From assembly GCF_048403405.1 (NCBI RefSeq), contig NZ_CP183129.1: DNA of 64,000 bases; one strand, given 5' to 3'. This DNA is from Escherichia coli. GTDB taxonomy: Bacteria > Pseudomonadota > Gammaproteobacteria > Enterobacterales > Enterobacteriaceae. Under the pieces are notes generated by a model, which saw only the letters and a program-made list of their open reading frames with translations, searched no databases and was not told where the DNA came from. Below are positions 40,763 through 41,411 of this stretch, one piece after another. The position numbers and the translations under genes are program-made. Numbering within the stretch: position 1 is the first letter of the stretch; every line of letters begins with the position of its first letter.

Positions 40763-41411
40763 ATTTAATACAGCATCTATCGCCGGATGCGATGCTTTGC
40801 GAACGCAGCCTGAGCCTGCATATAAACTTGTCATTTCCTGATTTTGATATGCTCATACCAACATCAGAAGAATGTTAAATTATGGATGACAAACCATTGC
40901 AGGCTCTGGCTAATCAACTCAAAACACCGGCTCAAGAAAGTCAGCATAATGGCTTCTTCTGACTGCAACAGGTGAAGAATAACCAGCCCCGCATTACCGG
41001 TATCCCCGTCAACCATCAGGGGCCCCAGCCTGACATCGCCTGAACATATTCCCCCACGCAACCTGCCGCACTGGCGTAGCCCACACAATAGGCGTTTCAG
41101 ACTGCTCAGTAACTGTAGTGGCGTTTCATCCGCCTGTAGCACCGGATGCATGAGCGATTTCTTATAGTTATTCCTTTGCTTAATAACGATTATTTCCGGG
41201 TCGTTCGCTCTCGTATTTTCTTTAATACGTCAGAGCTGCCTGGGCCGTAATACAGCATGTACCAGACCCGACACGGCATTTCTGACCAAGGGAAAAAGTC
41301 AACGATGAGTCGTTATATCAGCGCAAATGACGTCCTGTGGCACCTTTGCGGTGACCACATTCACGTCTCCGGCGCTGCCAGAGGATATTTATTTCAAGGA
41401 TACGTAGCATT

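What the first reader, a model, noticed from the sequence alone, without database searches (positions are those of the whole stretch)
40763..41411. Degenerate-looking spacer between cvrA and the LRR gene
The region starts with a REP-like motif (gccggatgcgatgc..., 40790-40825) and carries only a weak 95-aa minus-strand ORF (40864-41151) and very short plus-strand ORFs. It may be the remains of an older insertion at the same site, or the 5-prime regulatory region of the LRR gene.
Basis: seen in the sequence. Interest (0 to 1): 0.25.

Follow-up and report, generated by a model that had tools for sequence, protein, structure and literature searches.

The report
Dead insertion-sequence stub before LRR gene
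The 649-base gap between cvrA and the leucine-rich-repeat gene is non-coding DNA made of a worn-out repeat, the dead left end of an IS1414-like insertion sequence and a conserved leader of the LRR gene, which is ordinary genome debris that explains a strain-to-strain difference at this site.

Summary
The window is E. coli chromosome: emtA, ldcA, cvrA, the spacer, an LRR gene, a 19-kb integrative element, then dadX.

The spacer has four parts.
1. 40763-40811 is the cvrA 3' flank with a decayed REP-like palindrome.
2. 40812-41003 is the left end of an IS256-family element related to IS1414. It keeps the terminal inverted repeat, a promoter-like site, the transposase ATG at 40882 and about 40 codons. 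It has in-frame deletions and, in this strain, a stop codon. No right end was found.
3. 41004-41137 is variable, indel-ridden DNA that some strains lack.
4. 41138-41411 is a well-conserved segment found only at this locus. It is probably the promoter and leader of the LRR gene, but that was not tested.

The 95-aa minus-strand ORF is not a gene. It has homologues only in E. coli, is intact in 2 of 6 alleles, and shows no third-position bias.

The LRR arrangement occurs in 837 of 5426 complete E. coli genomes. K-12 carries 102 bp annotated "IS1414 (partial)" in the opposite orientation after the same cvrA flank. That fragment supplies the start codon of the small protein YmgM. O157:H7 carries a deletion derivative of the LRR arrangement.

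The finding is ordinary.

The parts
40763..40811 (.). cvrA 3' flank with a decayed REP-like palindrome (left arm GCCGGATGCGATG at 40782-40794)
   Evidence: 96% identical to K-12 up to 40820. Aligns to a strong REP-like hairpin in short-spacer strains. Fold z = -0.6 here against -3.9 there.
40812..41003 (+). Remnant of the left end of an IS256-family (IS1414-like) insertion sequence. IS positions about 1-150 carry a 12-nt deletion, followed by positions 326-380.
   Evidence: blastn against an intact Klebsiella plasmid IS: 92/114 and 46/55 identities. Hundreds of plasmid hits annotated as IS256 family transposase. 81-83% identity to IS1414 over the first 100 nt. Protein-level matches to both pieces.
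40812..40848 (+). Left terminal inverted repeat (IRL) of the IS remnant, GAGCCTGCATATAAACTTGTCATTTCCTGATTTTGAT
   Evidence: The only outlier when IS1414 and Klebsiella IS termini are scored along the whole islet (score 25.5, background 11.3 +/- 1.8).
40844..40873 (+). Sigma-70 promoter-like site TTGATA-18-AAGAAT inside the IS left end, upstream of the transposase ATG
   Evidence: The only promoter-like match in 40600-41600, and no more than chance expects. Its position fits a native transposase promoter. In K-12 the YmgM ORF, detected as a tagged protein, starts at the transposase ATG of the equivalent fragment.
40882..40962 (+). Transposase pseudo-ORF (MDDKPLQALANQLKTPAQESQHNGFF*). It is 26 codons here and 53 codons in alleles without the TGA.
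   Evidence: Translation. tblastn to the transposase N-terminus. A 53-aa version is called in L016, L017 and L005. BLASTP against the IS1414 transposase gives E = 8e-6 and 3e-5.
40807..40911 (.). 14-nt inverted repeat AGCCTGAGCCTGCA / TGCAGGCTCTGGCT bracketing the segment that is inverted in K-12
   Evidence: the repeat finder I1. K-12 aligns in reverse to 40812-40911.
41004..41137 (.). Variable middle segment of unknown origin, apparently unconstrained
   Evidence: 93.0% mean identity with 39 gapped columns among 7 alleles. 29-bp, 8-bp and 6-bp indels. Removed by a 159-bp deletion in L006-type strains. No similarity to the IS or to anything beyond this locus.
41138..41411 (+). Conserved LRR-proximal segment, the putative promoter and 5' leader of the LRR gene (inferred)
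   Evidence: 96.9% mean identity against 91-93% for the LRR gene. Retained in all 837 LRR-type genomes, including the deletion variants. AAGGA lies 11 nt upstream of the ATG. No sigma-70 consensus found. No Rfam match.
40864..41151 (-). 95-aa ORF, which is spurious and not a gene
   Evidence: No Pfam family. Only E. coli-type hits, 58-139 aa long. Intact in 2 of 6 alleles. Variable sites by codon position are 22/15/13. Largely deleted in L006-type strains.
41412..42758 (+). LRR gene (YopM/SlrP/SspH/IpaH-type repeats, no NEL domain). Its 3' end is replaced here by the junction with an integrative element.
   Evidence: Pfam LRR_4. 478 aa in strain 4621, identical up to 42756. PDB matches YopM 1e-27 and SlrP 1e-25.

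Best explanation
The spacer is a composite, non-coding intergenic region at the left edge of a small accessory islet (IS remnant plus LRR gene) that lies between cvrA and dadX in about 15% of E. coli.

Reading from cvrA, it contains four parts. First comes a decayed REP. Next comes the dead left end of an IS256-family element related to IS1414, inserted at or in the REP's right arm. The fragment keeps its terminal repeat, promoter-like region and start codon, but lost most of the transposase gene through in-frame deletions and a large 3' truncation. Third is about 130 bp of unconstrained filler. Last is about 270 bp of conserved, locus-specific sequence, which most likely carries the promoter and 5' leader of the LRR gene.

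Nothing in the spacer encodes a functional protein. The 95-aa antisense ORF is a chance ORF lying over the IS remnant and the filler.

Shown here: the identity and boundaries of the IS fragment, the absence of a right end, the non-coding nature of the 95-aa ORF, the locus specificity, and the relative conservation of the segments.

Inferred, not shown: that 41138-41411 is the LRR promoter and leader, and that the outward-facing IS promoter may add transcription toward the LRR gene.

Also inferred: the K-12 arrangement probably arose from an LRR-type ancestor. A second IS1414 would have inserted in the opposite orientation near dadX. A deletion between the 14-nt repeats, possibly after recombination between the two IS copies, would then have removed the LRR gene. 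I put this at about 0.5.
For: - IS identity: DNA matches to IS256-family elements cover window 40807-41003 in two pieces (92/114 and 46/55 identities). Protein matches to the IS1414 transposase cover aa 1-50 and 73-103. The IRL is the only terminus-like outlier in the islet. RefSeq annotates the homologous K-12 fragment as IS1414 (partial).
- No right end and no further IS sequence.
- The ORF is not a gene.
- Locus-specific: 41004-41411 occurs in 837 of 5426 genomes, almost always once per genome (838 places), with no copy seen away from cvrA-dadX. A 31-mer from the right part hits one of 100,044 species genomes, and that contig is 98% identical to the window, so I read it as a mis-binned E. 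coli contig.
- Conservation gradient: right part 96.9%, IS remnant 95.1%, middle 93.0%, LRR gene 91-93%.
- O157:H7 keeps IS positions 1-65 joined to the LRR 3' tail, so it is a deletion derivative of this arrangement.
- The K-12 fragment is 93% identical to active IS1414 but only 84% to the window remnant, while the flanks are 96% identical.
- Decayed IS1414 copies are common in E. coli (PMC12585946).
Against: - No sigma-70 promoter consensus was found in 41138-41411, and the single promoter-like hit in the region is within chance expectation.
- The conservation argument rests on 7 alleles. It could reflect recombination history rather than constraint.
- The origin of 41004-41411 is unknown. 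A fragment of an undescribed element cannot be excluded.
- The evolutionary order of the LRR type and the K-12 type is not polarised by an outgroup. No intermediate with a longer IS1414 next to dadX exists among the 5426 genomes.
- The Pfam transposase model does not detect the 53-aa remnant.
Confidence: 0.8

Rival explanations
1. The 95-aa minus-strand ORF (40864-41151) is a real small gene or a pseudogene fragment of a conserved gene, as RefSeq's 'hypothetical protein' call (WP_001327846.1) would suggest.
For: It is an uninterrupted ATG-initiated ORF. PGAP annotates it in several genomes. An identical-length ORF exists in L016.
Against: No Pfam family. All 23 hits carry E. coli-type sequence, have no domains and range from 58 to 139 aa. 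Out-of-frame indels break the ORF and the start is lost in 4 of 6 alleles. Variable sites fall 22/15/13 by codon position, with no third-position excess. A 159-bp deletion removes half of it in roughly 130 genomes that keep the LRR gene. Half of it lies antisense to a transposase remnant.
Confidence: 0.03
2. The whole spacer up to about 41269 is one internally deleted IS with both ends. On this reading 'CATGTACCAGACCC' (41256-41269) is its right inverted repeat, so only about 140 bp belong to the LRR gene.
For: By eye, 41243-41269 resembles the right repeats of IS1414 and the Klebsiella IS (roughly 17 of 27 positions with gaps). L010 carries a 19-bp insertion exactly there.
Against: Scoring IS termini along the islet gives no outlier there or at the islet's right end. 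41004-41300 scores no better than shuffles against the rest of the IS (10 against 10.9 +/- 1.4). There is no target-site duplication (cgcagcct against gacacggc, read).
Confidence: 0.1
3. The IS fragment has been co-opted. Its outward-reading transposase promoter (40844-40873) is the main driver of LRR-gene transcription, and the rest of the spacer is a long 5' UTR.
For: It is the only promoter-like site in the spacer and it points toward the LRR gene. In K-12 the YmgM ORF, detected as a tagged protein, begins at the transposase ATG of the equivalent fragment, which is consistent with these signals being active. The IS remnant is kept at 95% identity in all LRR-type alleles examined.
Against: The site is 540 bp from the LRR ATG, and a single hit is within chance expectation. 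The window allele has a weakened Shine-Dalgarno sequence and a stop codon. The intervening middle segment varies freely and can be deleted. That fits a UTR but gives no positive support. Nothing was measured.
Confidence: 0.2
4. The spacer hosts a structured regulatory RNA (small RNA, riboswitch or leader) on either strand.
For: The right-hand 270 bp are conserved and non-coding.
Against: No Rfam family matches at E <= 1 across 40500-41700. The terminator-like sites found number no more than chance expects. No covariation test is possible because the alleles are too similar.
Confidence: 0.05

Closest known systems
IS1414 (IS256 family), the E. coli insertion sequence that carries astA/EAST1 inside its transposase gene
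   Same: The left terminal repeat, the untranslated leader, the start codon and two stretches of the transposase gene are recognisably homologous. Identity is 81-83% over the first 100 nt, and the protein pieces align to aa 1-50 and 73-103. Decay by deletion is typical of IS1414 copies (PMC12585946).
   Different: Only about 190 of 1315 bp remain. There is no right repeat, no DDE catalytic region, no astA region (read in the intact IS sequence, around IS positions 800-900) and no target duplication. At 81-84% identity it is a diverged relative rather than IS1414 proper. The K-12 fragment is 93% identical to IS1414.
K-12 'IS1414 (partial)' feature at 1240188-1240289 and the small-protein gene ymgM
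   Same: It follows the same cvrA-side flank, with the junction at the same AGCCTGAGCCTGCA sequence, and it covers the same part of the IS (positions 1-102).
   Different: It has the opposite orientation, so the transposase ATG reads into the antisense of cvrA and makes the 67-aa YmgM (PMC6001520). In the window it reads toward the LRR gene and makes a 26-aa dead end. The two fragments are 84% identical while the flanks are 96% identical, so they are probably not the same copy. K-12 lacks 41004-41411 and the LRR gene.
REP (repetitive extragenic palindromic) elements of E. coli
   Same: The left arm GCCGGATGCGATG is one mismatch from the consensus, as I recall it. It sits just after a convergent gene's stop codon. 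It is homologous to a clean palindrome in short-spacer strains.
   Different: In this strain the right arm has diverged and abuts the IS end. The predicted fold is no better than shuffled sequence.

Membership tests
IS256 family / IS1414 | Terminal inverted repeat matching the family's left end | tested here: met
   40812-40848 aligns to the IS1414 and Klebsiella IS left repeats. It is the only outlier in a scan of the islet.
IS256 family / IS1414 | Intact DDE transposase (Pfam Transposase_mut, about 400 aa) | tested here: not met
   Only about 40 codons remain, with a stop in this strain. No Pfam hit for the 53-aa remnant. It matches only aa 1-50 and 73-103 of the 402-aa protein.
IS256 family / IS1414 | Right terminal inverted repeat | tested here: not met
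   No significant match anywhere between cvrA and dadX. 41004-41300 is not similar to the 3' part of the IS.
IS256 family / IS1414 | 8-9 bp target-site duplication (9 bp, CTCTTATGG, around the intact copy in L021) | tested here: not met
   The right end is missing. The 8-9 nt before the left repeat (cgcagcct) do not recur at either candidate right boundary (sequence).
IS1414 specifically | astA (EAST1) ORF embedded in the transposase gene | tested here: not met
   astA was read in the intact IS sequence, around IS positions 800-900. The window retains only positions about 1-150 and 326-380.
REP element | Consensus arm plus a stable imperfect palindrome | tested here: inconclusive
   The left arm has one mismatch. 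The fold gives z = -0.6 in the window, but the homologous site in L007 gives z = -3.9. It reads as a decayed REP.
Protein-coding gene (95-aa ORF) | Reading frame conserved among alleles, third-position excess of substitutions, homologues beyond the locus | tested here: not met
   Intact in 2 of 6 alleles. Variable sites by codon position are 22/15/13. Homologues come only from this E. coli locus type and vary in length.
Promoter / 5' leader of the LRR gene | Mapped transcription start or a recognisable promoter, and conservation above the neutral level | tested here: inconclusive
   Conservation is 96.9% against 93.0% for the adjacent filler. No sigma-70 consensus lies in 41138-41411. Start-site data are not available with these tools.

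The most novel reading that the evidence does not exclude
The same IS left-end cassette (terminal repeat, promoter and start codon) sits after cvrA in both orientations within the species. In LRR-type strains it faces, and may help transcribe, a YopM/IpaH-like LRR effector-type gene. In K-12-type strains a second, inverted IS1414 copy would have deleted that gene through a 14-nt repeat. That deletion would have created the expressed chimeric small protein YmgM (IS start codon plus the antisense of cvrA). On this reading ymgM is a recent by-product of losing the LRR gene, and the dead IS is a functioning portable promoter.
Probability: 0.25. Interest if true: 0.4.

Novelty: new member of a known kind. 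Interest (0 to 1): 0.15.

Why it matters
The main value is for annotation. RefSeq labels this spacer with up to three "hypothetical proteins". These are better described as an IS256-family remnant plus non-coding leader.

The result also explains a four-way polymorphism of the cvrA-dadX gap in E. coli: a short REP-only form, the LRR islet, the O157 deletion form, and the K-12 form with an inverted IS1414 stub. It gives a concrete origin for the K-12 small protein YmgM. It also marks which 270 bp to test for regulation of an uncharacterised effector-like LRR gene. None of this is surprising to a specialist.

Tried and rejected
- Pfam scans found nothing. They covered the 95-aa ORF, the 94-aa plus-strand ORF, ten further translated fragments from both strands, and the 53-aa transposase remnant.
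- An impression that 'ADETP' in the 95-aa ORF pointed to an IS66 transposase was not supported by Pfam or by the protein search.
- Rfam returned no match at E <= 1.
- Two candidate right inverted repeats, at 41243-41269 and at the islet's right end (TTCTGAACATG), looked suggestive by eye. Neither stood out in a scored scan.
- Direct repeats D1 and D2 from the repeat finder, including TAATACAGCAT at 40766 and 41248, were rejected as chance. The first copy differs in other alleles.
- Two apparent plasmid copies of the spacer (H33, H34) turned out to be chromosomal segments filed as plasmids.
- A search for an intermediate genome with a longer IS1414 next to the dadX flank found none.
- A simple inversion between the 14-nt repeats was rejected as the sole origin of the K-12 form. 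The two fragments are only 84% identical, and the K-12 fragment ends exactly at the IS terminus.
- An attempt to count short-spacer genomes was blurred by joined BLAST pieces. About 1034 records at 99% identity or more is only an estimate.

Full report
**Context.** The window is E. coli chromosome. ORFs and RefSeq matches identify emtA (minus strand), ldcA, and cvrA at 39026-40762. After cvrA come the 649-bp spacer and a leucine-rich-repeat (LRR) gene starting at 41412. Far downstream lie dadX (62039-63109, minus strand) and dadA. In strain 4621 the same spacer and an intact 478-aa LRR gene sit directly between cvrA and dadX. In the window, about 19 kb (42757-61767) is inserted into the 3' end of the LRR gene.

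**Checking the observation.**
- The REP-like motif is real but lies at 40782-40794, one mismatch from the left-arm consensus as I recall it.
- The motif aligns with a clean palindrome in strains whose cvrA-dadX gap is only 56 bp. That palindrome folds far better than shuffles (z = -3.9). The window version does not (z = -0.6). It is therefore a decayed REP.

**What the left third is.**
- A distant blastn of 40806-41420 against plasmids matched 706 records. Apart from four E. coli records carrying this same chromosomal locus, the matches listed cover only window 40807-41003, in two pieces, over genes annotated "IS256 family transposase".
- Against an intact 1315-bp copy on a Klebsiella plasmid, 40808-40919 aligns to the first roughly 110 bp of the IS (92/114 identities). 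This stretch holds the left terminal repeat, the leader and the first codons.
- 40949-41003 aligns to IS positions 326-380 (46/55 identities).
- The plus strand reads MDDKPLQALANQLKTP..., against the transposase MDEKQLQALANELAKNLKTP....
- In alleles without this strain's TGA, the stub is a 53-aa ORF. Its two halves match IS1414 transposase residues 1-50 and 73-103.
- An intact chromosomal IS1414 is 81% identical to the window over the first 100 nt.
- The only sigma-70-like site in the region, TTGATA-18-AAGAAT at 40844-40873, sits where a transposase promoter would be. One hit is no more than chance expects.

**What the IS fragment lacks.**
- Scoring IS1414 and Klebsiella IS termini along the reconstructed islet gives a single outlier, the left repeat at 40812 (25.5 against a background of 11.3 +/- 1.8).
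- Two sequences that looked like right repeats by eye do not stand out in that scan.
- 41004-41300 is no more similar to the rest of the IS than shuffled sequence.
- There is no target duplication.
- The astA region, which I read in the intact IS sequence, is absent from the window.
- The fragment is therefore a dead, one-ended remnant.

**The remaining 408 bp.**
- 41004-41411 matches nothing in plasmids beyond four E. coli records that carry this same locus.
- In 5426 complete E. coli genomes it occurs in 837, almost always once per genome (838 places), and no copy was seen away from cvrA-dadX.
- A 31-mer that is invariant apart from one C/T position, which the pattern allowed for, hit one contig among 100,044 species genomes. 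That contig is labelled Collinsella. It is 98% identical to the window, so I read it as a mis-binned E. coli contig.
- There are no Pfam or Rfam matches.

**Conservation among alleles.** Seven LRR-type alleles were compared. Their LRR proteins differ by up to 24%. Mean nucleotide identity by segment is as follows.

| Segment | Mean identity |
|---|---|
| cvrA | 97.8% |
| dadX | 97.8% |
| IS remnant (40812-41003) | 95.1% |
| Middle (41004-41137) | 93.0%, with 39 gapped columns |
| Right part (41138-41411) | 96.9% |
| LRR gene | 91-93% |

- The middle segment carries 29-bp, 8-bp and 6-bp indels.
- A 159-bp deletion removes the middle segment, together with the last 25 bp of the IS remnant, in a variant found in roughly 130 genomes.
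- The right part is kept in every variant.
- I infer that the right part holds the promoter and leader of the LRR gene. The scan found no consensus promoter there, and this inference is untested.

**The 95-aa ORF.**
- The protein search returned 23 hits. All carry E. coli-type sequence, have no domains and range from 58 to 139 aa.
- Among six alleles the ORF is intact in two. The others have frame-breaking indels or a lost start codon.
- The 50 variable sites fall 22/15/13 on codon positions 1/2/3.
- Half of the ORF is antisense to the transposase stub.

**Other arrangements of the same gap.**
- *K-12.* After the same cvrA flank and before the same dadX flank, K-12 has 102 bp annotated "IS1414 (partial)". 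This aligns to window 40812-40911 in reverse. The left junction falls in AGCCTGAGCCTGCA, which in the window forms a 14-nt inverted repeat with 40898-40911. The K-12 fragment ends exactly at the IS terminus next to the dadX flank.
- *YmgM.* In K-12 the transposase ATG opens ymgM, a 67-aa protein detected by epitope tagging, whose remainder is antisense to cvrA.
- *Relationship of the two fragments.* The K-12 fragment is 93% identical to active IS1414 but 84% to the window remnant, while the flanks are 96% identical. The two are probably different IS copies.
- *Proposed origin of the K-12 form (inference, about 0.5).* A second IS1414 inserted in the opposite orientation near dadX in an LRR-type ancestor. 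A deletion between the 14-nt repeats then removed the old stub, the LRR gene and most of the new IS. The K-12 fragment's last roughly 37 nt are closer to the window type than to IS1414, which hints at prior recombination between the two copies. The counts are small.
- *Missing intermediate.* No intermediate survives among the 5426 genomes.
- *O157:H7.* It keeps IS positions 1-65 in the window's orientation, fused to the last roughly 37 bp of the LRR gene. This is a plain deletion derivative.
- *Approximate frequencies.*
  - K-12-like: up to 3259 genomes. This count probably includes O157-type alleles, which align across the whole K-12 query.
  - Short REP-only: about 1034.
  - LRR type: 837.

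**Comparison with known things.** The fragment works like, and descends from, an IS256-family element. It fails every membership criterion for a functional IS except the left repeat. Decayed IS1414 copies are reported as common in E. coli (PMC12585946). The REP is a decayed member of a known class. Nothing here is a new kind of element.

**Verdict.** This is an ordinary intergenic mosaic. Interest is low. The side story of YmgM arising from the inverted IS stub is the only mildly notable point.

Noticed in passing
window 42757-61767: A roughly 19-kb integrative element is inserted in the 3' end of the LRR gene, leaving an ORF of 448 aa (41412-42758) against 478 aa intact. It encodes a tyrosine integrase (60311-61663, minus strand), a DUF927 protein (53757-55883) and an SLT-domain protein (48902-51523). 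The junctions carry an imperfect 12-bp repeat, TTAATCAACATT / TTATTCGATATT.
   Followed up: partly
window 41412-42758; L001 8813-10249: The LRR protein has YopM/SlrP/SspH/IpaH-type repeats (PDB matches down to 1e-27) but no NEL ligase domain. Named hits come from E. coli and Shigella. Its alleles are more divergent (91-93% nt, proteins down to 76%) than the non-coding DNA beside them. This suggests diversifying selection or repeat turnover.
   Followed up: partly
L002 4261-4464 (K-12 ymgM); window 40634-40834 minus strand: K-12 ymgM is a chimera. The start codon and first roughly 9 codons come from the IS1414 transposase, and the rest is antisense to the cvrA 3' end. The window keeps the antisense part as a 66-aa ORF with a different start. 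RefSeq calls it a partial pseudogene in strain 4621.
   Followed up: partly
L007 666-721: About a fifth of E. coli genomes have only a 56-bp cvrA-dadX gap, consisting of a clean REP-like palindrome. They lack the IS stub, the LRR gene and the 238-bp dadX-proximal flank present in K-12. Whether this form is ancestral or a deletion was not resolved.
   Followed up: partly
L008 2692-3905: Some O157:H7 genomes carry an additional IS3-family element in the remnant gap, with cvrA annotated as truncated at its 3' end.
   Followed up: no
L022 (JAIJJM010000586.1): A 2-kb contig of a 'Collinsella sp.' metagenome-assembled genome is 98% identical to the E. coli cvrA-LRR islet. It is almost certainly a binning contaminant.
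   Followed up: yes
L005 (NZ_CP031350.1) and L006 (CP088590.1): Two records filed as 175-187 kb 'plasmids' in PLSDB carry the chromosomal emtA-ldcA-cvrA-dadX-dadA-ycgB block. They look like chromosome fragments or misassemblies.
   Followed up: no
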